From a virus, in the IMG/VR virus record IMGVR_UViG_3300036832_001295, positions 1-64,000 of that record: DNA of 64,000 bases, one strand, 5' to 3'. Below the pieces are notes generated by a model that saw only the letters and a list, made by a program, of their open reading frames with translations, did no database searches and was not told the DNA's origin. Position numbers and translations under genes: made by a program. This document shows positions 31,842 through 42,414 of the stretch, piece by piece. Numbering within the stretch: position 1 is the first letter of the stretch; each line of letters begins with the position of its first letter.

Positions 31842-32810
31842 TCACCAGTACAAGATCCGCCACCAGGCTCGGGTGACGGTGGCCGCCTTGCTGGCCGAGA
31901 CGAGCAGTCGCAGGTTGGTCTTGTCCCCGACCGTGCCGACCTGGCTGTAGACGAACTCGCTGCTGGCGGTGGGGGCGGCCAGCAGCTGCCCGCGCGGGAA
32001 GATGGACTTCTGGTTGTTGCCGCGGTCCAGGTTCTGCACCTGCACGTAGAGAACGCCGTCCGGGCCGAGCCCGGCGACGTAGAGCCAGGCGGTGAGGCTG
32101 ATGAACCGGGCGGTGTTGGGCAGGATCGCCGATGCCCCGCCGGAGGCGGTTGTCGGGTTCCAGCCGTCCCACTGCAGGTAGGTGTTGGTAGGCGCGGCGG
32201 GCACCTTGGTGGGTTTCTTCGCGGAGGCGGTCAGGTACAGCTGGGCGGGCATGTCGACCTCCGGCGGGGGAGTGGGGACGGGGCTGGTGGGCAGAATCGC
32301 GGTGCCCAGCGACAGGCAGTGCTTGTAGCGGGTGGTGCGGTCGGCCAGCCCGTTCAACCCGCCGTTGATGGCCCGGGTGGCCCCGACGATGTCGCCCTGG
32401 TCGGAGAGGGTGTTCAGCTGCGGGCGGGACACCGTCCAGTACCAGACCGGGCCGAGCCAGGCCCATTGGTCGGCAGCCAGGGTGGGCGGGTGGTTGAGGA
32501 ACAGATTCGGGTCGTTGAGCAGGTTCTTGCGGGCGCACCACTGCCCGAAGGCGGCGTAGTTGTAGTCCCAGGTGATCTGGATGAAGGTGCGCCCGATGTA
32601 GGGCGGGTAGGTTGCCCCGGGCGGTGGCTGGATTTCCTGCTTGTAGCGCAGCGAGCCGGATTCATGCCCGATCTGGGCCAGGAACATGGCGGCCCGGCGC
32701 ACGTTGGTGATCTCGCCGATGACCATCGCGGCGTTGGCCCCGTTGACCAGCTGGCTGGCGCGGGGCAAGTCCAGCCCGGGCATCGCCTTGACGAGGGTGG
32801 CGGCGTCCAC
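31842..32810 (-). CDS. endolysin, glycoside hydrolase family 19
   Basis: AMFLAQIGHESG, YIGRTFIQITWDYNY and TRAINGGLNGLADR GH19 motifs. Confidence 0.9.
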   Translation of the reverse strand: MDAATLVKAMPGLDLPRASQLVNGANAAMVIGEITNVRRAAMFLAQIGHESGSLRYKQEIQPPPGATYPPYIGRTFIQITWDYNYAAFGQWCARKNLLNDPNLFLNHPPTLAADQWAWLGPVWYWTVSRPQLNTLSDQGDIVGATRAINGGLNGLADRTTRYKHCLSLGTAILPTSPVPTPPPEVDMPAQLYLTASAKKPTKVPAAPTNTYLQWDGWNPTTASGGASAILPNTARFISLTAWLYVAGLGPDGVLYVQVQNLDRGNNQKSIFPRGQLLAAPTASSEFVYSQVGTVGDKTNLRLLVSASKAATVTRAWWRILYW

Positions 32811-32895
32811 ATTCCTTCGTATGGTGCGGTGCGGGTCGGACAGGGGGGCCTTGAACCGGGACGTTTGAAACCGTCAAGAAATAGAGGCGATGGTC

Positions 32896-32996
32896 TTGCA
32901 CACCTGGCGCTGGGATGTGCTACAGTTCCTGTGTCATCGCTTCCGCGGTGCAAACCACACAGGGTTCATAACCCACTACTCAAAGCCTATAGGAGG
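32896..32996 (+). promoter_or_regulatory. putative SigA-type promoter, leader hairpin and RBS of the RAMP-like operon
   Basis: TTGCAC (32896), 19 nt, TG-n-TACAGT (32921); CCTGTGT...ACACAGG stem; AGGAGG at 32991. Confidence 0.55.
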
Positions 32997-33002
32997 CTTA
33001 CT

Positions 33003-33650
33003 ATGACCGCAGCACCTACTGCTGCTCTGCACATCCCACGCATCAACGTGGAGACCCTGCTGGTGCCGATCCTCGGGACCAGCCCGCTGCTCGTGCACCA
33101 GTGGTCCCAGAAGGCCAAGCTGCAGATGCTCAACGCGCAGCAGGGCATCAAGACCATCAAGGAACCCCGCGACCCGCAGTCGGAGTACGAGGCCAGCCTG
33201 TACCGGGCCGGGGACGACGGCTACGGCATCCCGTCGGTCGCCTTCAAGGCGGCCACCGTGTCCGCGGCCCGCGTCTACGGCAAGGCGGTCCGGATGACCG
33301 AACTGCGCCAGTTCCTGTTCTTCCGCGGCAAGATGTACAAGGGCAACAACGGCAAGTTCAGCTGCAACCAACAGCTGTTCCTGCTCGACGGCACCCCGCA
33401 GATGCGCGAAGACATGGTCACCGTCGGCATCTCCGGCACCGACCTGCGCTACCGGGGCGAGTTCACCGAGTGGTCGACCACGCTGACCGTCGAGTACATC
33501 AAGTCCTCGATCACCAAGGAGTCGGTGCTCGGCATCATCGAGGCGGCCGGAACCACCGTCGGGGTCGGCGAGTGGCGGCCGGAGAAGGACGGCGAGTTCG
33601 GCACCTTCAAGCTCGACCCGTCCCGTGAGGTGCAGGTCATCTCGGCATGA
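33003..33650 (+). CDS. RAMP/Cas7-like protein, putative effector of the GGY-NN repeat system
   Basis: 215 aa from ATG 33003 with strong RBS; RAMP-like layout ILGTSPLLVH, YGIPSVAFKAA and C-terminal G-rich loop GVGEWRPEKDGEFGTF. Confidence 0.8.
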   Translation: MTAAPTAALHIPRINVETLLVPILGTSPLLVHQWSQKAKLQMLNAQQGIKTIKEPRDPQSEYEASLYRAGDDGYGIPSVAFKAATVSAARVYGKAVRMTELRQFLFFRGKMYKGNNGKFSCNQQLFLLDGTPQMREDMVTVGISGTDLRYRGEFTEWSTTLTVEYIKSSITKESVLGIIEAAGTTVGVGEWRPEKDGEFGTFKLDPSREVQVISA

Positions 33651-34015
33651 GCGGCGACCCGCAGCAGTGGTTGCGGACGGAGTTGAAGGGGGTGCGCGTC
33701 CGGCAGGGCGCGCTCACCCCGGCCACGTTGCTGGCTGACGTGACCCAGACCGGCCCGACGCATCCGCTCTATGACCGGTTCCTGTGGTCGGTGGACACGC
33801 CGCAGGACAAGGCCCAACTGGCCCGCATGCTGATCCACGAGGCCCATCCGGAGCAGGCCTGCCGCCAGGCCACCCTGGACGAGGTACAGGCCGGGTTCGC
33901 CCGGCTGGGGTTTTCCACCGGCAGCTTGCAGACCAACTACCACCGTGAGGACCACATTCTGTTCACGGTGGACGACGCACAGCGGCTGCTGGCCGCATTA
34001 GGGGGACAGTCATGA
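33647..34015 (+). CDS. accessory protein, divergent paralog of 34012..34467
   Basis: ATGA-coupled; GALTPATLLA...HPLYDRFLW. Confidence 0.75.
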   Translation: MSGDPQQWLRTELKGVRVRQGALTPATLLADVTQTGPTHPLYDRFLWSVDTPQDKAQLARMLIHEAHPEQACRQATLDEVQAGFARLGFSTGSLQTNYHREDHILFTVDDAQRLLAALGGQS

Positions 34016-34467
34016 GCTTCTCCGCCTACGAGGCGCAGCGGGAACTGATCACGCAGCTGGAAGAGGTTCGCGAACACCGCGGCGAACTGACCCCGCAGGC
34101 GGTGTTGGCCGAGGTCGAGGAGACCGGCAAGCGGCACCCGCTCTACGACCGGTTCGAGTGGAACAACCGGGTCGCCGGGCACGGCTACCGCCTCGACCAG
34201 GCGCACCGGCTGATCATGTCCGTGAAGGTGATCTTCCGGGGACCGACCGACGAGGAACGCAAGATCCGCAAGTACGTCGCGGTGCCGCAGCCGATGGCCC
34301 ACCAACCCAACTACGAGCCGATCGAGGACGTCGCGATGGACGACCTGAAACGCAAGCTGGTGCTGCAGGACGCGGAACGGCGCTGGAAGGCGTTGCGGAC
34401 CCAGTTCGGCCACCTGCAGGAGTTCATCGACCTGGTGCTGGGCGACCTGAACGGCAAGGCCAGCTGA
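34012..34467 (+). CDS. accessory protein of the RAMP-like operon
   Basis: ATGA-coupled; GELTPQAVLA...HPLYDRFEWNN...YRLDQAHRLI. Confidence 0.8.
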   Translation: MSFSAYEAQRELITQLEEVREHRGELTPQAVLAEVEETGKRHPLYDRFEWNNRVAGHGYRLDQAHRLIMSVKVIFRGPTDEERKIRKYVAVPQPMAHQPNYEPIEDVAMDDLKRKLVLQDAERRWKALRTQFGHLQEFIDLVLGDLNGKAS

Positions 34468-34470
34468 GCT

Positions 34471-34554
34471 AAACACGCTCGGCCAGGTGCCGATCGTGTT
34501 TGTCGAGATCCGGGATGCCCAACCGCGGGGGAGGGAGCATCCCGGATCTTCGGC
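34471..34554 (+). other. two stem-loops forming the array leader
   Basis: AAACACGcTCGGC-caggt-GCCGAtCGTGTTT (34471-34501) and GATCCGGGATGC...GCATCCCGGATC (within 34502-34554). Confidence 0.7.
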
Positions 34555-34561
34555 GTCTGCG

Positions 34562-34957
34562 GGCAGGGCTTGGTTCGGCACGGTTCGGCACGGCAGGGCT
34601 GGGCAGGCACGGCAAGGCTGGGCCCGTCGAGGTTCGGCGTGGCAAGGCCCGGCAGGCCAGGCAGGGTGTGGCACGGCACGTCGTGGCGGGGTTCGGCAGG
34701 GCTGGGCAGGCAAGGCGAGGCACGGCATGGCACGGCCTGGCGCGGCCGGGCAGGCAAGGCGTGGATGGCCCGGCGGGACGTGGCAAGGCGGGGCAGGCAC
34801 GGCTTGGTTGGGCACGGCAGGGCTAGGTTCGGCATGGCGGGGCAGGCAGGGCTTGGTGCGGCCAGGCGCGGTTGGGGTTGGCGCGGTGCGGCGGGGCAGG
34901 CGTGGCACGGCTTGTCATGGCTGGGCAGGGCTGGTCTTGGCGCGGCGTGGCAGGCTG
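34562..34957 (+). repeat. GGY-NN pentamer array 1 (putative guide ncRNA, about 8 units)
   Basis: period-5 GGC/GGT plus a variable dinucleotide, interrupted every 8-10 pentamers by GGCA. Confidence 0.9.
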
Positions 34958-34999
34958 TGCCGAACAGGTCAAACGGTGATCTGGTTAGGGGGAATCGGG

Positions 35000-35446
35000 A
35001 TGAAGATTCATACGCTGTTGGCGTTGGCCGCGGCCGGGGTGTGCACCGCCGGAATGGTGGTCTTCGCGGCACCGGCCTCGGCGGCGCAGTCGGAGTTGAC
35101 CCTCAACTGCACCGGCCTCGGCATGGTGACGGTGGCGACCAACAACAACAACTCATCCGAGCACGGTGGTTGGGGCGCGGCGCAGACCGTGAACATTCCC
35201 GGGCACGGTATCGCGACCTCGTTCTCCGGCACGATTACCGACCTGGTGACCGGCACCAGCGTGAGCTTCACCCAGGTCAAGGGCAACGGCAACGCCAACC
35301 AGAACACCACCGGGCAACCCACCATGTGCTCACAGACGATCACCGGCACGGTGGTCGACTTCACCGGGGGGTTCATCCCGCCGGGCATGTCGGGCTCTGA
35401 CCCGGCCACCTTCATGCTCACGGTGGGCGTGATTTACAAGGCCTGA
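35000..35446 (+). CDS. secreted protein embedded between the two arrays
   Basis: 148 aa; Sec signal MKIHTLLALAAAG...AAPASA-A; two Cys in the mature part; GC3-rich codons. Confidence 0.8.
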   Translation: MKIHTLLALAAAGVCTAGMVVFAAPASAAQSELTLNCTGLGMVTVATNNNNSSEHGGWGAAQTVNIPGHGIATSFSGTITDLVTGTSVSFTQVKGNGNANQNTTGQPTMCSQTITGTVVDFTGGFIPPGMSGSDPATFMLTVGVIYKA

Positions 35447-35449
35447 CTC

Positions 35450-38300
35450 GGCAGGCAGGGCTTGGCGGGGCATGGTTCGGCGCGGCATGGCACGGTGTGG
35501 CAGCCAGGGCACGGCGCGGCACGGCACGGCCTGGCTCGGCGCGGCAGGCGCGGCGCGGCGCGGCGGGGTCGGGCCCGGCCTGGTGCGGCGAGACATGGCG
35601 CGGCGAGGCAGGCATGGTGTGGCTCGGCCTGGCTCGGCAAGGCAGGGCAGGCACGGCATGGTTGGGCTCGGCGCGGTTGGGCGTCGCAGGGCTTGGCAGG
35701 CAGGGCGAGGTGTGGCGGGTCCAGGCATGGCGCGGCAGGCATGGCCCGGCGCGGCTCGGTACGGCAAGGTGGGGCGTGGCAGGCGGGGTTGGGTTCGGTT
35801 TGGCATGGCGCGGTTGGGCACGGCACGGCTCGGCAGGCGTGGCTTGGCGTGTCGAGGCGGGGCTGGGTTCGCTGGGCCAGGCGGGGCAGGGCAGGCGTGG
35901 CTGGGCGGGTTCCGGCAAGGCAAGGCATGGCCAGGCAGGCACGGCCCGGTTCGGTATGGCACGTCGTGGCCAGACTTGGCTTGGCAGGCGTGGCTTGGTG
36001 TGGCACGGCCGGGTCAGGCACGGTTGGGCGCGGCAGGCTCGGCGAGGCGTGTCATGGCAAGGCTCGGCTAGGTAGGGCACGGCAGCCGAGGCCTGGTGAG
36101 GCAGGGCAACGCGAGGCATGGCTAGGCCCGGCAGTCGGGGCGTGGCATGACCCGGTGTGGCAGGTCACGGCAAGGCGTGGCGCGGCAGGCACGGCTAGGT
36201 CGGGCGCGGATCGGCGTGGCATGGCGTGGCAGCTAAGGCGCGGCGGGGCACGGCACGGCTGGCTAGGCAAGGCTCGGCCCGGTGCGGCATGGCAGGTCAG
36301 GGCAGGCGTGGCAGGGTGCGGCAGGGTCAGGCGCGGCAGGGCTAGGCGGGGCTTGGCAGGCAAACGTGGTTTAGCTGGGCCCGGCGTGCCGGGGCACGGT
36401 GGGGCGTGGCAGGCAGAGCAAGGCTCGGCTTGGTTCGGCGTGGCATGGCAGGCAGGGCTAGGCAAGGTATGACAAGGCTGGGTGCGGCATGGCGTGGCTG
36501 GCATTCGTGGTTTGGCTGGGCGGGCCGCGGCGGGGCAGGCAAGGCATGGCTTGGCATCGCATGGTGTGGCTCGGCTAGGCGCGGCAGGGCAGGCAGGCGA
36601 GGCCGGGCAGGCAGGGCTGGATTCGGCCGGGCATGGCTTGGCGCGGTTTGGCAGGCAAGGCAGGCATGGTGAGGCACGGCAGGGCACGGCGCGGCTAGGC
36701 GCGGCAGGCGAGGCAGGGCCCGGCTAGTCCAGGTGCGGCGGGTCGCGGCCGGGTTCGGCAGGGCAGGCTCGGTTGGGCTGGGCGGGGCGTGGTTTGGCAA
36801 GGCAGGGTTGGGCACGGCAGGCAGGCAGGGCGTGGTTGGGCTCGGGCGGCTGGGCACGGCAGGGCAGGCACGGCGGGTCCGGGCGAGGCTCGGCAAGGTC
36901 CGGCCTGGCGGGGTAGGGCCTGGCAGGCGAGGCGGGGTGTGGCGGGGCCTGGCGGGTCAAGGCACGTCATGGCGCGGCAGGCATGGCGAGGCAGGGCTTG
37001 GTCCGGCAGGGCACGTCCCGGCTTGGCTTGGCAGGCTCGGCCAGGCGCGGTTGGGCGAGGCATGGCAAGGCAGGGCTCGGCCAGGCAGGCATGGCCCGGC
37101 GAGACCCGGCTCGGCTCGGTGCGGCATGGCGCGGCATGGCAGGCAGGGCGCGGCGCGGCCAGGCGAGGCCGGGCTTGGCTCGGTCCGGCCTGGCGAGGCG
37201 AGGCAGGCATGGCCCGGTATGGCACGGTGCGGCACGTCCCGGCGTGGTATGGCAGCCGAGGCCCGGCTTAGCGTGGCAGGTCTTGGCGAGGCCTGGTGTG
37301 GCACGGCAAGGCAGGGCGTGGCAGGCATCGCGTGGTGTGGCACGGCCCGGTGGGGCACGGCTTGGCAGGCATCGCACGGCGCGGCATGGCAGGTCGAGGC
37401 AAAGCCTGGCGGGCACGGCAGGCATGGCCCGGTCCGGTTCGGCACCGCACGGCGGGGCATGGCAGGCATGGTTCGGCTTGGCGTGGTGTGGTGGGGCACG
37501 GCAGGGCACGGCAGGCAGGGCTCGGCGTGGTTCGGCACGGCACGGTGTGGCGTGGCTTGGCGGGCAGGGCTCGGCCGGGTTGGGTACGGCGTGGTCAGGC
37601 GAGGCGCGGCGCGGTGTGGCAGGCAGGGCTCGGTACGGCGGGGCATGGCAGGGTGTGGCTAGGCCCGGCGGGCATGGCATGGCGCGGCAAGTCCAGGCGA
37701 GGCGCGGCGAGGCGTGGCGAGGCGAGGCGAGGCAGGCAAGGCAAGGTCGGGCAGGGCACGGTATGGCCCGGTGTGGTTGGCATGGCGCGGCATGGCAGGC
37801 AGGGCGCGGCAGGCTGGGCTCGGCACGGCTAGGCGCGGCTCGGCAAGGCGTGGTGGGGCAGCCGGGGCTGGGCGAGTTGGGCATGGCCGGGCGCGGCGTG
37901 GCAGTCCAGGCAGGGCAGGACGAGGCAGGGCTAGGCGCGGCTTGGCAGGGCAGGCTTGGCCCGGCGGGGCATGGTTGGGCTAGTCAAGGTCGGGCATGGC
38001 AGGCAGGGCAGGGCTTGGCCCGGCAACGCAGGGCTTGGCCCGGCGCGGCAGGCACGGCAGGGTTAGGCGGGGCGGGGTCCGGCTAGGCCTGGCAGGCAAG
38101 GCGGGGCAGGTCCCGGCTTGGTTGGGCACGGCTCGGCGCGGCAGGCGTGGCAGAGTTCGGCGAGGCTAGGCGTGGCAAGGCCCGGCTAGGCAGCCACGGC
38201 GGGGCCTGGCCAGGCATGGCAAGGTGAGGTGCGGCGCGGCATGGCAGGCGTGGCTTGGCGTGGCACCGTGTGGCCACGCGTGGCACGGCACGGCAGGCTC
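35450..38300 (+). repeat. GGY-NN pentamer array 2 (putative guide ncRNA, roughly 55-60 units by hand estimate)
   Basis: about 2.85 kb of period-5 GGY-NN with GGCA (occasionally GGCT/GGCG) punctuation; strong G skew; no coherent ORF. Confidence 0.92.
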
Positions 38301-38317
38301 GGAAAACCGGGCCTGCC
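38292..38317 (+). terminator. stem-loop closing the array
   Basis: GGCAGGCTCGG-AAAA-CCGGGCCTGCC, 11 bp stem with one G-U pair, at a convergent junction; no U-tract. Confidence 0.65.
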
Positions 38318-38320
38318 CGC

Positions 38321-38494
38321 TCACCCCTCGCTGTCGCTGCACCCCACGTCGCGGTACTCCACCTCGGTCGTCTGGCTCGGCGGGTCCACCTGCGGGTAGT
38401 CGTAGTCCTCGACCAGGTCGAAGCGTTCCTCCTCGTAGGAGGTCTCCGGCGGCGGCGGCTCCTCGGTCGGCTCCGGGATCGGCACCTCGCTCAT
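38321..38494 (-). CDS. small acidic protein
   Basis: 57 aa from ATG 38494 with GGGAGAG RBS. Confidence 0.55.
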   Translation of the reverse strand: MSEVPIPEPTEEPPPPETSYEEERFDLVEDYDYPQVDPPSQTTEVEYRDVGCSDSEG

Positions 38495-38504
38495 CGTCTC
38501 TCCC

Positions 38505-39299
38505 TCAGTAGGTGAACAGCCGGGTCCAGTCGCCCCGCCACACCTGGCCGACATGCTTGCTGCGCGGGGTGTGCTTCTTCTGCCACTTGGTCACCGCGGC
38601 GGTAGTAGTTGCTCCGTAGACGCCCGGGGTCCACTTGCCGCCGAAGCCGAGGGCCGCCAGCCGGTTCTGGATGGCCTGGATGTCCGGGCGTTCGGCGACG
38701 TAGTAGCCGCCGTGGCTGGTGTTCGGCCCGGCGATCGGCCCGAAGTAGTGGCCCTTCTTCATGTAGGAGGGCCAGCGGCGGCGCAACTTCTTCTCCTTGC
38801 CCGGTTTGGCCGGTGCCTTGGGGGCCGAACCCTGCCCGCAGAAGACCTGCGCGACCCGCTGCCAGGCGGGTCCGTCGTTGACGTAGGCGCGGTGCCCGGA
38901 CAGATGCACGTGCCAAAGATGTGATTTGTCCGAACTGACCCATTTCAGGGTCTGCACGTCCAGCCCGGTGACGTCCTTGCCGTTGACGGTGCCGAAGAAC
39001 TCGCGCAGCGTCTGCATCCGCACGTCGTGCGCCTTGGCGGCGTTGATCAGCCGTTGGGTGACCTTGCGCATCTGCGCCGCGGGCAGCGTGACGTCCAGGG
39101 CGGACGCGGCCTGCCCGTCGCCCTTGCGGTCGATCGGTTGGGTCACCGAATAGTCGTCCTTGGGCAGCACGTCCCGGCAACGGTGGTAGCCGTAGGCGTG
39201 GCTGCGGTCCCCGACGATGCCGGACAGCTGCGCCTGCGGGATGAAATGGTGGATGGTGTTGTAGGCCGCCTGGATCGCCTGCGGGGCATATTCGCTCAT
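38505..39299 (-). CDS. second lysin: putative Zn peptidase (M15-like) plus peptidoglycan-binding domain
   Basis: GYH...ALDV...HLWHVHLS metal ligands; C-terminal DIQAIQNRL...GVYGATTTAAVTKWQ...GQVW PG-binding pattern. Confidence 0.75.
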   Translation of the reverse strand: MSEYAPQAIQAAYNTIHHFIPQAQLSGIVGDRSHAYGYHRCRDVLPKDDYSVTQPIDRKGDGQAASALDVTLPAAQMRKVTQRLINAAKAHDVRMQTLREFFGTVNGKDVTGLDVQTLKWVSSDKSHLWHVHLSGHRAYVNDGPAWQRVAQVFCGQGSAPKAPAKPGKEKKLRRRWPSYMKKGHYFGPIAGPNTSHGGYYVAERPDIQAIQNRLAALGFGGKWTPGVYGATTTAAVTKWQKKHTPRSKHVGQVWRGDWTRLFTY

Positions 39300-39314
39300 C
39301 GGTGTTCCTCCCGT

Positions 39315-39557
39315 TCAGCCCACACCGTCACCGGGCAGGGCAACCGTAACCCGGCCTCCCGTTATCCACTGCCCCCAGACCGACCTGATCCGGGGACCGG
39401 GCGGCGGCAGCACCGGCACCTCGACGTTGACCAGCGCCCGGCAGCACCGGCAGCGGTACTCCCGGTAGGCGGCACCATCCAGCGTGATGCAGGACCGCTC
39501 GTCACTGTCCAGGTCCTGCTGCCCGCAGTTCGGGCAGACCGCGCCGATCTCACACAT
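39315..39557 (-). CDS. small Cys-rich zinc-ribbon protein
   Basis: CPNCG...CRCC; GTG start overlapping the portal end. Confidence 0.5.
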   Translation of the reverse strand: MCEIGAVCPNCGQQDLDSDERSCITLDGAAYREYRCRCCRALVNVEVPVLPPPGPRIRSVWGQWITGGRVTVALPGDGVG

Positions 39558-42375
39558 CCTCTTCCTCTTCCTCCTCGTCGCCGTAATGGGTGTCCCCGGC
39601 CAGCTTCGGCACCGCGGAGGTGTCCAGATACTTGCGCATTCCGTACACCTTCGGGTCCCCGAAACGCCCGGTCGGCCGGTAATGGGTCGGGTCGTCTTCC
39701 TCGGAGTTGTCCGGGGCGATCCAGTGCCGTTTGGTGACCACGCTGATGCCGAAGCGCTGCCCCGGCTGGTACCCGGCCAGCTTGCTCAGCTTGGCCGCCT
39801 TCTTCCGGGGCCGTTTGCCGTCCTTGTTGTCCTTCGGCGCGTCCTCGCGCTCCTCGTCGGACTCCTCCGGGCCGGACTCCTGGCCGGGCATCGGGGCGGG
39901 CAACCCCAACGCCGGGTTGCCGACCGGCGGGGCGTTGATGTCGCCTTGCTCGGCCATCATCGCCTGCTCCGGGTCCGGCGACATCACCGGGTTGTCGTCC
40001 ACCCCCATGCCCAGCGAAGGCACCGCCGCGTCGTTGGCGTTGTAGACCGGCGAGGGCTGGCTGCCCGCCTCGATCGCCTTCGGGGCGAAGTCGGCGGCCA
40101 GGTCCGCCGGGATCGGGTAGCCCTCCCGTTGCAGGGACTGGAAGATCTTGCGGCGGGTGTCCTGCTCGGCGACCGCCAGGGCCACCGCCTCCTCGCTACG
40201 CTGCTCGATGGCCTCGTTGAACTCGATGCCGGTGGTGGACAGCCGCTGCTTGTACGGGATCGGCACCCCGGCCGCGGCGAGGGTCTCCACGAACTGCCGC
40301 TCGGTCTCCTCATCGGAGATGTTCAGCGTCTTGAAGGTCAGCCGCGGGATCAGCAGCTTGGGCTGTTCGATGATGCGTTCCTCGCCGGACTCCTCGTCTA
40401 TCTCATAGATCTCCTCGGTGATCAGGTACCGTTTCCCGCCGCGCACCTCGTAGTCGAAATGCTCCTGCGCCTCGGCGACGATCGCGGCCCGGTCGAAGAC
40501 GAACTTGGCCAGCATCCGCTGGTAGTGGGTCAGCAGCTGGGTGACCACATCCCTGTTCAAGGCATCCGCGGCGTAGGTCTCCCCGGCCTGCGCGCCGGTC
40601 AGCATCGTCTGAGACAGCCCGAACACCATCAAGATCCGTTCGGTGATCCGGTCGAAGTCGTTGGACAGGTCCGGCACGTTCTCCCGGCCGAAGACCGGCT
40701 GCATGTCGATCGCCCAGTGGTAGGTCAGCACCCGGAAATCGGCGGCCAGCGCCGCGTCCAGGGAGGCGTTGAACTCCTCCATGTCCTCCTGAGTGGGGAT
40801 CCACGGGGTGCCGGTGCCCAGGTCCTGCGCGGTCGCGCCCAGCTTGGTCAGGATCAGCGGGGTGTAGAGCCGATCGGCGATGGAGTCCAGCGCGGAGTTC
40901 AGCATCTCCTCCTGGATGATCATCCGGAAGGCCCGCATCAGCAGCGGGATGCCACGGTTAGAAAACCGGTCGGCCTTGAACCGCAGCTGCTTCAGGATGA
41001 TGTTGGAGACGGGCATCAGCGCGTCTTCCTGGGCGTAGTTCAGCAGTTCCGGGAACTGCCGGACCAGCTGCGTGTACTGCCAGTGCGGGGTGCGGCTGGT
41101 GAGCACCTTGCGCAGCGACTCGGGCAGCCGCATCAGGTACCGCGGGTCGTTCAGGAACAGCGACTTCTCGATCTCCACGTCATCCGGGTTGATCAGTTCG
41201 TCGGCTTCCCAGACGCCCAGCGTGTCGTTCCAGCCGCCCAGCGCCCAGGACTCGCCGGACAACCAGTACTCGGTGCCCAGGTCGAGCAGGAAGTCCTCGA
41301 AGTTCAGCTGGTCGAAGAACAGGTCGGAGTAGAAGTCGATCAGCTGCTGGTCCTGGCATTCGAAGGCCATGCCCTGCATCGGCAGCTTGGAGTAGACGTC
41401 GATGCAGGCCGGGATCACCGGGTGGGTGACGTAAAGCAGGCGGCAGTTCTTGGACTGGTAGCCCCAGGCGACGTAGTTGCCGGTGCTGGTCTGCATGCTG
41501 ATCACGGTGGCGGTGCCCGCGTCGGTAACCGAGAGCACCTTGTCCGGCCCGCCGTGCGGCAGGGTGTACCAGCGCCCGACCGCGTTCATCCCGGACTCCA
41601 CCGAAGACAGCCCGAACAGTTCGTCGCCTTCGTTGGCGACGAAGTACTCGGTAGTGATCTTGCCGGTGTCGATCGGGTGACCGCGCAGGTCGACCTGCTG
41701 ACGGCCGAACCACGGGTTGAACCAGCGGTGGTCGGGGGTGCAGGTGATGACCTGGCCGGAGGCCATGGTCAGCTTCACCACCGGCACGTCATCGCGGGAC
41801 AGAGTGGCCAGCACGGTGGCCGGGAGGTAGTGCACGCCCAGCCCGCCGTTGCTGTGCAGCGTGTACTTCCAGCCCTGCACCGCATCGCCGGGGGTGATCT
41901 CACCCAGCGGTTTGGAGGTGCCGTCGGCCATCAGGATCGGCGCGTCCGGGGTATTGCAGAACTCCCGGATCCGTTCCAACTCGACCGGGTCGGTGAAGTT
42001 GAAGGGCAGGTTGTTCTGCCGCCAGTACCACATCGGGTCACGCGGGCGGGCGGTGGCGATCTGCATCGAGCCACCGGTCCCGTAGGCCGCGGTGCGGCGC
42101 ATCGACGTGCCGACCGCCCGGGAGCCGCTCAGCCGGTTGTTGATGGTGCGCTCGGGCAGGTGCGGGGCCCCGAACGGCAACCCGGCAGGGGTGCGCTGGT
42201 CGGACTCGCGGACCCGCCGGGTCGCGACCCGGCGCGGCGACGCGATGTTGGCTCCGGTGCCGGGCAGGTCCGGCAGCGGCACCCGGCGGCCCCGCCGGTC
42301 GGTCACGGAAAAGTCGGCCACGTTACTTCGCGGCCCCAGCCGGGTGACGGGCAGCGGGTCGCCCGCTAGGTTCAC
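39550..42375 (-). CDS. portal protein (Bxz1-like) containing an intein; exact start uncertain
   Basis: RPRDPMWYW, IDVYSKLP, RGIPLLMRAFR, IADRLYTPLIL.KLG and ALAADFR recognised from cluster C portals. Confidence 0.88.
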   Translation of the reverse strand: MNLAGDPLPVTRLGPRSNVADFSVTDRRGRRVPLPDLPGTGANIASPRRVATRRVRESDQRTPAGLPFGAPHLPERTINNRLSGSRAVGTSMRRTAAYGTGGSMQIATARPRDPMWYWRQNNLPFNFTDPVELERIREFCNTPDAPILMADGTSKPLGEITPGDAVQGWKYTLHSNGGLGVHYLPATVLATLSRDDVPVVKLTMASGQVITCTPDHRWFNPWFGRQQVDLRGHPIDTGKITTEYFVANEGDELFGLSSVESGMNAVGRWYTLPHGGPDKVLSVTDAGTATVISMQTSTGNYVAWGYQSKNCRLLYVTHPVIPACIDVYSKLPMQGMAFECQDQQLIDFYSDLFFDQLNFEDFLLDLGTEYWLSGESWALGGWNDTLGVWEADELINPDDVEIEKSLFLNDPRYLMRLPESLRKVLTSRTPHWQYTQLVRQFPELLNYAQEDALMPVSNIILKQLRFKADRFSNRGIPLLMRAFRMIIQEEMLNSALDSIADRLYTPLILTKLGATAQDLGTGTPWIPTQEDMEEFNASLDAALAADFRVLTYHWAIDMQPVFGRENVPDLSNDFDRITERILMVFGLSQTMLTGAQAGETYAADALNRDVVTQLLTHYQRMLAKFVFDRAAIVAEAQEHFDYEVRGGKRYLITEEIYEIDEESGEERIIEQPKLLIPRLTFKTLNISDEETERQFVETLAAAGVPIPYKQRLSTTGIEFNEAIEQRSEEAVALAVAEQDTRRKIFQSLQREGYPIPADLAADFAPKAIEAGSQPSPVYNANDAAVPSLGMGVDDNPVMSPDPEQAMMAEQGDINAPPVGNPALGLPAPMPGQESGPEESDEEREDAPKDNKDGKRPRKKAAKLSKLAGYQPGQRFGISVVTKRHWIAPDNSEEDDPTHYRPTGRFGDPKVYGMRKYLDTSAVPKLAGDTHYGDEEEEEEDV
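41446..41958 (-). mobile_element. mini-intein (171 aa, no endonuclease) in the portal
   Basis: starts CNTPDAPILMADG, block B CTPDHRW, ends TGNYVAWGYQSKN followed by +1 Cys; removal gives RIREF-CRLLYVTH. Confidence 0.88.
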
Positions 42376-42414
42376 TTCAAACGGTCCACCTCCCGAGAAC
42401 AGGAGCTACTACTG

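What the first reader, a model, noticed from the sequence alone, without database searches (positions are those of the whole stretch)
34562..38300. Second-level punctuation: a 4-nt GGCA unit splits the arrays into blocks of about 7-13 pentamers
Seen: the period-5 register slips by one base at recurrent GGCA|GGC junctions (e.g. 34841, 34895, 35778, 35832, 36922, 36976, 37030, 37084, 37138), with rare GGCT/GGCG variants. Decoded motifs start and stop at these junctions. Inferred: GGCA is a processing or filament boundary giving ~40-65 nt guides with 14-26 specified bases, the role CRISPR repeats play.
Basis: partly seen in the sequence, partly recalled or inferred. Interest (0 to 1): 0.78.

Follow-up and report, generated by a model that had tools for sequence, protein, structure and literature searches.

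The report
Guide boundaries in phage VIPR array
The four-base GGCA steps are real and mark the borders between about 57 separate guide RNAs in the array of a soil phage's VIPR system, a CRISPR-related DNA silencer described in 2026, so this is a large new example of a known kind.

Summary
Observation confirmed. Two + strand tracts (34562-34952, 35450-38295) are GGY-NN pentamers broken by 4-nt units, 68 of 78 being GGCA. All nine quoted junctions are there. 46 of 73 blocks hold 8-10 pentamers.

It is the guide array of a VIPR system (bioRxiv 10.64898/2026.04.26.720920). The 215-aa gene at 33003-33650 matches the solved SUSP1 Vipr protein (PDB 36pp, E 7e-7; profile 4.5e-8). A conserved 151-aa partner gene follows.

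The GGCA step fits that paper's 'staggered arrays' with 1-nt overlaps (fig. S18; legend only seen). Three lines make GGCA the guide border:
- It is the main 4-nt unit beside vipr in 73 of 80 viral and 57 of 79 genome loci across several phyla, with blocks of 9-10 units.
- Blocks shared between otherwise different arrays end exactly at GGCA.
- For 12 guides with near-perfect one-base-skip matches, identity is 224/244 inside the block but 16/56 and 16/60 in the neighbouring units.

RNA ends could not be tested: no RNA run is listed. No natural target with a recognisable gene was found for a window guide. This scan met the same grammar in at least 16 other genomes. Verdict: new member of a known kind.

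The parts
33003..33650 (+). vipr gene (215 aa), the RAMP-type effector; AGGAGG ribosome-binding site upstream
   Evidence: phmmer against PDB finds 36pp_D 'SUSP1 Vipr protein' at E 7e-7, aligning the GVG-x-WRP glycine loop. A profile of 25 homologues gives E 4.5e-8. There are 1968 homologues at E<=1e-3. Start chosen.
33647..34015 (+). 122-aa ORF of unknown function lying between vipr and the conserved partner gene
   Evidence: tblastn finds it in only 2 of 82 viral/phage loci (L003, L018) and 0 of 79 genome loci. No Pfam family.
34012..34467 (+). candidate vipr-accessory (vap) gene, 151 aa
   Evidence: A homologue is found in 79 of 82 viral/phage loci and 50 of 79 genome loci. In the 60 closest listed cases it starts 0-77 nt after vipr on the same strand. 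phrog_15946, unknown function. No Pfam or PDB match.
34471..34554 (+). two strong hairpins between the vap stop and array 1
   Evidence: RNA fold -57.7 kcal/mol, z -5.25, 0 of 200 shuffles as stable. The first is a terminator-like site at 34479-34493. Function not tested.
34562..34952 (+). vrRNA array 1: 9 blocks (8, 9, 10, 8, 2, 5, 9, 10, 10 pentamers), 8 GGCA units
   Evidence: parse
35000..35446 (+). 148-aa ORF with a signal-peptide-like N-terminus that splits the two arrays
   Evidence: ORF. No Pfam or PHROG family. No homologue in 161 related loci.
35450..38295 (+). vrRNA array 2: starts and ends with GGCA; 60 GGCA, 4 GGCG, 3 GGCT, 1 GGGC, 1 GGTT units
   Evidence: parse; block lengths
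36926..36975 (+). example guide of 10 units between GGCA 36922 and GGCA 36976; reads in sense as helicase motif I, D-G-V-G-L-G-K-T-I-A
   Evidence: Decode. 12 matches with <=2 mismatches in 151 actinobacterial genomes against 0 for the backwards control. In 8 fetched loci identity is 144/160 inside the block, 1/48 in upstream and 10/48 in downstream neighbour units.
37034..37083 (+). example guide of 10 units between GGCA 37030 and GGCA 37084; reads antisense as the first TIR-domain strand, W-D-L-F-I-S-H-A-W-E
   Evidence: Decode. 32 matches with <=3 mismatches in 401 genomes against 11 for the control. The best, at 18/20, lies at the start of a Pfam TIR_2 domain in L214.
36359..36411 (+). block with degenerate GGY anchors, the only block shared with the closest sibling contig L003 (40/49); partial copy at 36504-36537
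   Evidence: meaning unknown
33582..33610 (+). site inside this phage's own vipr (glycine-loop codons E-K-D-G-E-F-G-T-F-K) matched 18/20 by a guide of another viral contig (L009)
38292..38317 (+). last GGCA and an 11-bp hairpin closing array 2
   Evidence: fold -27.3 kcal/mol, z -3.4

Best explanation
The 3.7-kb region is the guide-RNA array of a phage VIPR system of the tail-less, back-to-back ('staggered') type.

How it most likely works, drawing on the published SUSP1 mechanism: the + strand is transcribed in the same direction as vipr. One Vipr protomer binds each GGY-NN pentamer and the protomers form a helical filament. The NN pairs read double-stranded DNA with one target base skipped per unit, usually the codon wobble base.

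A GGCA unit is one base short. It therefore breaks the five-base register, ends one filament or guide and starts the next. The array is thus cut into about 57 usable guides of 7-13 units (mostly 8-10, or 44-54 nt, with 16-20 specified bases), plus about 16 short remnants.

Shown here: the grammar, its link to a Vipr homologue and a conserved partner gene, deep conservation of GGCA, block-wise turnover ending at GGCA, and target matches confined to single blocks.

Inferred: that the RNA is physically cleaved at or next to GGCA, by Vipr itself or a host RNase, and that filaments assemble as in the published SUSP1 structures.
For: Effector. The 215-aa protein matches PDB 36pp 'SUSP1 Vipr protein' (E 7e-7; profile E 4.5e-8). 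The glycine-loop GVG-x-WRP and the Y-R of the thumb region are aligned.

Grammar. 524 of 585 pentamers are GGY-NN. 68 of 78 4-nt units are GGCA. 46 of 73 blocks hold 8-10 units, P 3e-25 against random slips.

Association. 77 of 83 sequences with a vipr homologue carry such arrays on the vipr strand.

Conservation of GGCA. It accounts for 564 of 768 4-nt units in 73 of 80 viral loci and 261 of 329 in 57 of 79 genome loci. These include Firmicutes, Proteobacteria and Myxococcota at about 30-40% Vipr identity. GGCA-to-GGCA lengths peak at 9-10 units.

Cassette borders. Shared blocks are 49/49, 39/39, 44/44, 45/49, 44/49, 41/49, 40/44 and 40/49 identical. Flanks are 22-45 of 70 identical. The one exception is a flank at 67/70, where the next blocks are shared too.

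Targets. The one-base-skip rule gives 10 hits against 2 for shuffled guides, while skip 0 gives 1 against 1 and skip 2 gives 0 against 0. With 651 guides it gives 17 against 3. For 12 distinct guides identity is 224/244 inside the block, 16/56 upstream and 16/60 downstream. One 14-unit block matches a rival vipr at 26/28 over its full length.

Window guides. The helicase guide gives 12 hits against 0 for the control, with 144/160 inside, 1/48 upstream and 10/48 downstream. The TIR guide gives 32 against 11.

Literature (read: Results, Discussion, Methods and figure legends of 10.64898/2026.04.26.720920; passages of 10.64898/2026.04.26.720927). vrRNAs have 9-16 repeats and follow the 1-nt skip rule. 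'Staggered arrays with overlapping vrRNAs' come from '1 nt overlapping positions'. One protomer binds per repeat.
Against: No RNA data exist for this phage, so transcription, strand and RNA ends are untested.

No natural target in a recognisable gene was found for any window guide. Exact scans gave 0 hits for five guides. The only exact hits, two metagenome contigs with one shared sequence, lie in a 99-codon open frame that ends 18 codons after the motif, too short for a TIR domain by my reading. They may be chance.

Window guides showed no excess of matches over shuffles in 121 related loci or in the phage's own genome.

The sequence match to SUSP1 Vipr covers only the C-terminal 58-84 residues.

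I saw only the legend of fig. S18. That the published 'staggered' arrays use GGCA is therefore my inference. The paper says only the ribozyme and single-guide architectures were confirmed by small-RNA sequencing.

16 of 73 blocks are too short to be guides, so the grammar is not clean.
Confidence: 0.85

Rival explanations
1. GGCA breaks the filament register but the RNA is not cut. One long transcript carries many independent Vipr filaments like beads on a string, each block acting as a guide while still joined to its neighbours.
For: None of the comparative results separates a filament border from a cleavage site. There is no conserved hairpin, tail or ribozyme at junctions that could direct a nuclease: Rfam gives none, and only GGCA plus a purine-biased next base is conserved.
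Against: Published VIPR RNAs co-purify as discrete species of about 100 nt or less. The fig. S18 legend speaks of 'individual processed vrRNAs'. [quoted passage not shown] By my inference, that would be hard for 57 tethered filaments.
Confidence: 0.2
2. GGCA is the start of a constant last pentamer GGCAG that shares its final G with the next guide. This last unit pairs with the target (x-A-G), so it acts as a fixed anchor or PAM-like requirement and not as a pure delimiter.
For: This is the literal reading of '1 nt overlapping positions'. In 12 guide-target pairs the target unit after the guide's 3' end began with A in 6 and had G second in 5. It was exactly AG in 3, slightly above chance.
Against: The excess is not significant with 12 pairs. 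The best-supported pairs do not show AG: the rival-vipr targets read AT or CT and the TIR targets read CG or GC. The published type II system needs no flanking motif.
Confidence: 0.1
3. The 4-nt units are neutral slippage or deletion scars in a pentamer satellite and have no function.
For: Short and irregular blocks exist (16 of 73), as do back-to-back GGCA pairs.
Against: The lost base would be random, yet 63 of 73 units are GGCA (P 3e-20). The spacing is regular (P 3e-25). The same unit and spacing recur across phyla.
Confidence: 0.02

Closest known systems
VIPR systems with 'staggered vrRNA arrays' (bioRxiv 10.64898/2026.04.26.720920, main text and legend of fig. S18)
   Same: Phage-borne Vipr homologue, GGY-NN pentamers on the vipr strand, guides lying back to back with a one-base overlap or slip, no tail between guides, and a conserved small partner gene.
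   Different: Nothing found that differs in kind. The text I could read names neither GGCA nor block lengths, and this architecture was not among those confirmed by small-RNA sequencing there. This locus is unusually large (about 57 guides, 3.2 kb). Among 161 related loci only L012 is comparable, with 72 GGCA units.
Type II VIPR of phage SUSP1 and the P. fulva prophage (same preprint; structures in 10.64898/2026.04.26.720927, PDB 36pp)
   Same: Homologous effector (E 7e-7), the same GGY-NN code, similar guide length (9-16 repeats there, mostly 8-10 here), and the one-base-skip rule supported for this clade.
   Different: SUSP1 guides are separate RNAs of about 100 nt, each closed by a conserved tail of about 40 nt with a pseudoknot that caps the filament. 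Here there is no tail, and a single missing base marks the border.
CRISPR arrays processed by Cas6-type RAMPs
   Same: An array of many variable guides separated by a constant delimiter, block-wise gain and loss of units, and an effector of the RAMP family.
   Different: The delimiter is 4 nt rather than a 24-37-nt repeat. The constant protein-binding part is interleaved in every unit. Guides pair discontinuously. No Cas1/Cas2-like acquisition genes lie in the region annotated.
Hammerhead-ribozyme-interspersed VIPR arrays (same preprint, fig. S19 legend)
   Same: Multi-guide VIPR arrays that need a way to separate guides.
   Different: No ribozyme or any Rfam family is found in 32800-38500 at E<=0.1.

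Membership tests
VIPR system | Vipr protein: a small (about 20 kDa) RAMP homologue with glycine-rich loop and thumb | tested here: met
   215 aa. Matches PDB 36pp 'SUSP1 Vipr protein' at E 7e-7; profile E 4.5e-8 over positions 112-195. The GVG-x-WRP loop is aligned.
VIPR system | vrRNA made of alternating GGY / NN pentamers next to vipr, on its strand | tested here: met
   524 of 585 pentamers start GGC or GGT. The arrays lie 900 nt downstream of vipr on the + strand. The same holds in 77 of 83 related sequences.
VIPR system | Guides of about 9-16 repeats | tested here: met
   This holds if GGCA is the border. GGCA-to-GGCA blocks of 7-13 units make up 46 of 48, with the mode at 9.
VIPR system | NN pairs read DNA with one skipped base per unit (xNN rule) | tested here: met
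   For the clade: skip 1 gives 10 hits against 2 shuffled, skip 0 gives 1 against 1, and skip 2 gives 0 against 0. With 651 guides, 17 against 3. For window guides: 12 against 0 and 32 against 11 in the tool's backwards control. No exact natural target in a recognisable gene was found for a window guide.
VIPR system | Accessory vap gene beside vipr | tested here: met
   A 151-aa homologue is found in 79 of 82 viral/phage loci and 50 of 79 genome loci, in the listed cases 0-77 nt after vipr. I could not determine which published vap class it belongs to.
VIPR system | vrRNAs are expressed and co-purify with Vipr | not testable with these tools
   Only one DNA run of a soil metagenome holds the stretch; no RNA holder is listed.
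Staggered vrRNA array (fig. S18) | Adjacent guides start and end at positions overlapping by 1 nt, with no tail between them | tested here: met
   GGCA followed by GGC equals two pentamers sharing one G; there are 68 such steps. Only the legend of the figure was visible, so the equivalence is inferred.
Type II VIPR (SUSP1 type) | Conserved 3' tail of about 40 nt with a pseudoknot after each repeat tract | tested here: not met
   Blocks follow each other with only GGCA between them. Only the first base after a junction shows any bias.
CRISPR-Cas | Direct repeats of 24-37 nt alternating with contiguous spacers, plus cas1/cas2 | tested here: not met
   The period is 5 nt, with higher-order periods of 5n+4 only. 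No Cas families were found in neighbouring genes.

The most novel reading that the evidence does not exclude
The single missing base is a complete, self-sufficient guide delimiter. Vipr filaments measure out their own guides, and the RNA is cut at the register break with no repeat hairpin, tail or ribozyme. This allows the densest known guide arrays.

This phage would then use about 57 such guides largely as an RNA-guided anti-defence library aimed at conserved motifs of host immune genes: the first TIR strand, a helicase motif I, and possibly a GHKL ATPase. That differs from the published cases, where guides mostly target rival phages.
Probability: 0.3. Interest if true: 0.6.

Novelty: new member of a known kind. 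Interest (0 to 1): 0.33.

Why it matters
VIPR was published only in 2026, and its tail-less 'staggered' arrays are the architecture that the discovery paper did not list among those confirmed by RNA sequencing. This locus and its 150-odd relatives give a simple, testable rule for calling guides in such arrays: cut at GGCA and expect 8-13 units. They also show that the rule holds from actinobacterial phages to prophages of Firmicutes and Proteobacteria.

A correct guide caller is needed before targets can be predicted. With it, this phage's guides read as conserved motifs of TIR and helicase genes. This raises the possibility, untested here, that phages use VIPR against host immunity as well as against rival phages. 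For engineering, a 4-nt delimiter would make very compact multiplex guide arrays.

Tried and rejected
So the Vipr and Vap folds were not modelled, and no fold search or complex prediction was made. I used the search for related loci in place of the look-up of encoding contigs.

RNA evidence. The look-up of sequencing runs listed one DNA run of a soil metagenome, probably the source, and no RNA holder.

Exact one-base-skip pattern scans for window guides.
- TIR guide: 0 hits in genome contigs.
- Helicase and GHKL guides: 0 hits in viral contigs.
- Guides at 36134 and 36980: 0 hits in viral contigs.
- TIR guide in metagenome contigs: 2 contigs carrying one identical sequence. It reads C-E-L-F-I-S-Q-A-C-E inside a 99-codon open frame that ends 18 codons later. 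I did not run Pfam on it. I treat it as a possible chance match.

Window guides against DNA in hand. Against the phage's own genome plus 82 loci there was no excess over shuffled guides at any skip. Against 39 portal-relative loci there were 7 real hits against a shuffled mean of 20.

Other negative searches.
- Megablast of 32000-42400 against phage records: no match.
- Rfam at E<=0.1: nothing.
- Sigma-70 consensus scan: no promoter-like site.
- Pfam on three long ORFs that run through the array: nothing. I reject a coding reading, because the 5-nt period with one-base slips fits no reading frame.

Does the terminal GGCAG pair with the target? Inconclusive, with exact AG in 3 of 12.

Nature of the 151-aa partner. 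No PDB match. The protein atlas shows only viral hypothetical clusters and a weak resemblance to Rep3 winged-helix domains (TM 0.32-0.35). This is a lead only.

Host. Not identified. The portal is 38% identical to those of Mycobacterium, Gordonia and Rhodococcus phages.

Not visible. Supplementary files and figures of the VIPR papers were not visible. Fig. S18, the data files with type assignments and the target tables may already show GGCA, block lengths or this clade.
Full report
WHAT IS THERE

The window is the first 64 kb of an 85.7-kb single-contig virus record. It holds a portal gene (39550-42375, minus strand), an endolysin, a collagen-like tail fibre and a 1690-aa virion protein. The only sequencing run that holds the region is a soil metagenome.

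Two G-rich tracts lie on the + strand, between a rightward gene block ending at 34467 and the leftward lysis and packaging genes. They span 34562-34952 and 35450-38295 and are about 50% G. A 148-aa ORF with a signal-peptide-like start (35000-35446) separates them.

A dynamic-programming parse shows that both tracts are runs of five-base units, GGC or GGT followed by two free bases. 524 of 585 units fit this form. The runs are interrupted by four-base units. In-array, 68 of 78 four-base units are GGCA; the rest are GGCG (4), GGCT (3), GGGC, GGTT and GGAT.

Both arrays begin and end with a GGCA, so every block is bracketed on both sides. Block sizes cluster tightly: 46 of 73 blocks hold 8, 9 or 10 pentamers and 57 of 73 hold 7-13. 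The remainder are 16 short blocks of 1-6 units and four GGCA-GGCA doublets.

If the one-base slips were random deletions, about a third would leave an A, and block lengths would follow a geometric distribution. Both nulls fail, at P 3e-20 and P 3e-25. Tandem Repeats Finder independently reports higher-order periods of 29, 34, 44, 49, 54 and 64, all of the form 5n+4.

WHAT IT IS

A full-text search for pentanucleotide repeats in phages led to bioRxiv 10.64898/2026.04.26.720920. I read its Results, Discussion, most of the Methods and the figure legends.

The paper describes VIPR systems. A small RAMP protein, Vipr (about 20 kDa), binds guide RNAs made of 9-16 YNNGG repeats. The NN pairs recognise double-stranded DNA with one target base skipped per unit. 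Companion preprints show that one protomer binds each repeat and that the protomers form a helical filament (10.64898/2026.04.26.720927, passages). I saw passages of two further VIPR preprints.

The gene at 33003-33650 begins after an AGGAGG site and encodes 215 aa. It matches the solved SUSP1 Vipr chain, PDB 36pp, at E 7e-7. A profile of 25 homologues matches at E 4.5e-8. The alignment covers the thumb-side Y-R and the glycine loop GVG-x-WRP. The family is large, with 1968 proteins at E<=1e-3.

The 151-aa gene at 34012-34467 has a homologue in 79 of 82 viral/phage loci and 50 of 79 genome loci, in the listed cases directly after vipr. It is the obvious accessory (vap) candidate. Its function stays unknown. 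A 122-aa gene between the two is shared with only two other loci.

So the locus meets the sequence-level criteria of a VIPR system. Expression could not be tested.

THE GGCA STEP AS GUIDE BORDER

The discovery paper mentions 'staggered arrays with overlapping vrRNAs'. I saw only the legend, and the paper lists the ribozyme-type and single-guide architectures, not this one, as confirmed by small-RNA sequencing. I tested the border idea in three ways.

First, conservation. With the Vipr profile I fetched 80 viral contigs, 79 loci from species genomes and two Gordonia phage records.
- Arrays on the vipr strand occur in 77 of 83 sequences of the first batch, which includes the own genome.
- GGCA is 564 of 768 four-base units in the viral loci (73 of 80 loci) and 261 of 329 in the genome loci (57 of 79 loci).
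- It is 9 of 10 in the two Gordonia phages.
- The genome loci include Gordonia, Nocardia, Streptomyces and Microbacterium. At about 30-40% Vipr identity they also include Lachnospiraceae, Oscillospiraceae, Sphingomonas, Rhizobiaceae and Sorangium.
- GGCA-to-GGCA lengths peak at 9-10 units in every set.
- Around the junction only GGCA and a mild A or purine bias at the next free base are conserved: window 37 of 59 A against 0.33 overall; viral loci 242 of 560 against 0.32.

Second, turnover. Guides are almost all unique between loci. Where two otherwise different arrays share a block, the shared stretch starts and stops at GGCA.
- L042/L054: 49/49, with flanks at 45/70 and 39/70.
- L074/L078: 39/39.
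- L069/L073: 44/44.
- L037/L065: 45/49.
- A second L042/L054 block: 44/49.
- L071/L074: 41/49.
- L014/L016: 40/44.
- The window block at 36363 against its closest sibling L003: 40/49.
Flank identity of 22-45 per 70 is what the shared GGC scaffold alone gives. The one flank at 67/70 is a case where the next blocks are shared as well. Blocks thus behave as cassettes, as CRISPR spacers do.

Third, targets. I decoded every block of at least 8 units from the related loci and slid it over all DNA in hand.
- The one-base-skip rule gave 10 near-perfect matches (at most 10% mismatches) against 2 for shuffled guides. Skip 0 gave 1 against 1 and skip 2 gave 0 against 0.
- With 651 distinct guides of at least 9 units and 4.6 Mb counted on both strands, it gave 17 against 3.
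- Taking the best target of each of the 12 distinct guides, identity at the variable positions was 224/244 inside the block. It was 16/56 in the three units of the upstream neighbour block and 16/60 in the downstream one, which is chance level.
- A 14-unit block of L042 matched the glycine-loop codons of a rival vipr at 26/28 over its whole length.
- A 10-unit block of L009 matched the same region of four other vipr genes and of this phage's own vipr (33582-33610, 18/20).

For the window's own guides I found no natural target in a recognisable gene, but family-level matches behave the same way.
- The block at 36926 reads in sense as D-G-V-G-L-G-K-T-I-A.
  - With at most 2 mismatches it hit 12 places in 151 actinobacterial genomes, against 0 for the tool's backwards control.
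  - 11 of the 12 read D-x-V-G-L-G-K-T-I-(D/E) (my translation of the rows; 8 of them confirmed).
  - In the 8 fetched loci identity was 144/160 inside the block, 1/48 upstream and 10/48 downstream.
- The block at 37034 reads antisense as W-D-L-F-I-S-H-A-W-E.
  - With at most 3 mismatches it hit 32 places in 401 genomes, against 11 for the control.
  - The best hit, at 18/20, is the first strand of a Pfam TIR_2 domain.
  - A guide of the sibling contig L003 matches a second TIR variant, R-D-L-F-L-C-H-A-W, at 17/18 in two of the loci fetched.
These decodings were leads from first-reader notes that I checked myself.

WHAT REMAINS OPEN

- No RNA run exists for this phage, so neither transcription nor RNA ends are shown.
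- The comparative results cannot tell a cleavage site from a mere filament stop on an uncut transcript.
- Whether the last GGCAG unit pairs with the target is undecided (exact AG in 3 of 12 pairs).
- Exact pattern scans for five window guides found nothing in the species genomes or viral contigs. The metagenome scan gave two contigs with one sequence in a short open frame, which may be chance.
- The window guides do not target the phage's own genome, 82 vipr-bearing loci or 39 portal relatives above shuffle level.

MECHANISM, STEP BY STEP

- Shown: the grammar, the link with vipr and its partner gene, conservation of GGCA, cassette borders, and target matches confined to blocks.
- From the literature: one protomer binds per pentamer, adjacent protomers hold the GGY, and the NN pairs bind DNA with a skipped base.
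- Inferred: a unit with only one free base cannot seat the next protomer in register. The filament therefore ends there and a new one starts on the next GGC. The exposed junction is then cut by Vipr or a host RNase, giving guides of 44-54 nt with 16-20 specified bases.
- The two strong hairpins before array 1 and the hairpin after the last GGCA may bound the transcript. This is untested.

COMPARISON AND NOVELTY

This is a member of the VIPR family of the staggered type, not the tailed type II of SUSP1 and not a CRISPR array. The grammar is thus already in print in outline, and this scan has met it in at least 16 other genomes, with the same conclusion by other follow-ups.

What this locus adds is size: about 57 usable guides in 3.2 kb, matched among 161 related loci only by L012. 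It also adds the explicit rule that GGCA is the border, with its cross-phylum conservation, and guides that read as motifs of TIR and helicase genes. I rate it a new member of a known kind, of modest interest.

Noticed in passing
window 33582-33610: This phage's own vipr gene (glycine-loop codons) is matched 18/20 under the one-base-skip rule by the first guide of another viral contig (L009 6621). The same guide matches four other vipr genes at 18-19/20. A 14-unit guide of L042 matches the vipr of a Streptomyces genome locus (L130) at 26/28. Rival VIPR systems appear to target each other's effector gene.
   Followed up: partly
L001 3686-4009 (Gordonia phage UmaThurman, NC_031249.1 gene 40): The annotated 'hypothetical protein' gp40 is in fact a GGY-NN guide array with 5 GGCA steps. 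It lies between a roughly 207-aa gene (gp39) and the homologue of the 151-aa partner gene. Gordonia phage Ecliptus has the same array in an unannotated gap (L002 3753-3978).
   Followed up: partly
window 37034-37083 and L003 8128: The window guide and a guide of its closest sibling contig each read as a variant of the first TIR-domain strand. The sibling's guide matches TIR_2 genes of two actinobacterial genomes at 17/18. This hints that the phages aim guides at host TIR immune genes.
   Followed up: partly
window 36359-36411 and 36500-36537: Two blocks have degenerate anchors (AAC, AGC, GCC in place of GGY) and a shared start. Each follows a doubled 4-nt unit: GGCA-GGCA before the first, GGCT-GGCA before the second. 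The first is the only block shared with sibling L003 (40/49). It could be a conserved guide or an internal signal.
   Followed up: no
L034 7097, L040 987, L042 7281, L047 7268, L024 2413, L005 2615, L030 935, L044 7711, L048 7273: One guide-like string recurs in at least 9 different viral loci, with differing block ends, while nearly all other guides are unique. It may be a guide against a widely conserved target or a conserved terminal element. It is not present in the window.
   Followed up: no
window 34471-34554 and 38292-38317: Two very stable hairpins (z -5.25) lie between the partner gene's stop and array 1. An 11-bp hairpin lies right after the last GGCA. They may be transcript bounds or processing signals.
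   Followed up: partly
window 35000-35446: A 148-aa ORF with a signal-peptide-like N-terminus sits between the two arrays. It has no Pfam or PHROG family and no homologue in 161 related loci. It may be an inserted cargo gene.
   Followed up: partly
G000 75643-75665 (outside the window): An 8-unit guide of viral contig L067 matches this phage's genome at 15/16. With only 16 specified bases this may be chance.
   Followed up: no
window 36596, 36654, 37412, 37779, 37798, 37861 and others: 16 blocks of 1-6 units and four GGCA-GGCA doublets look like remnants of decayed or truncated guides. They are concentrated in 36350-36870 and 37400-37900.
   Followed up: no
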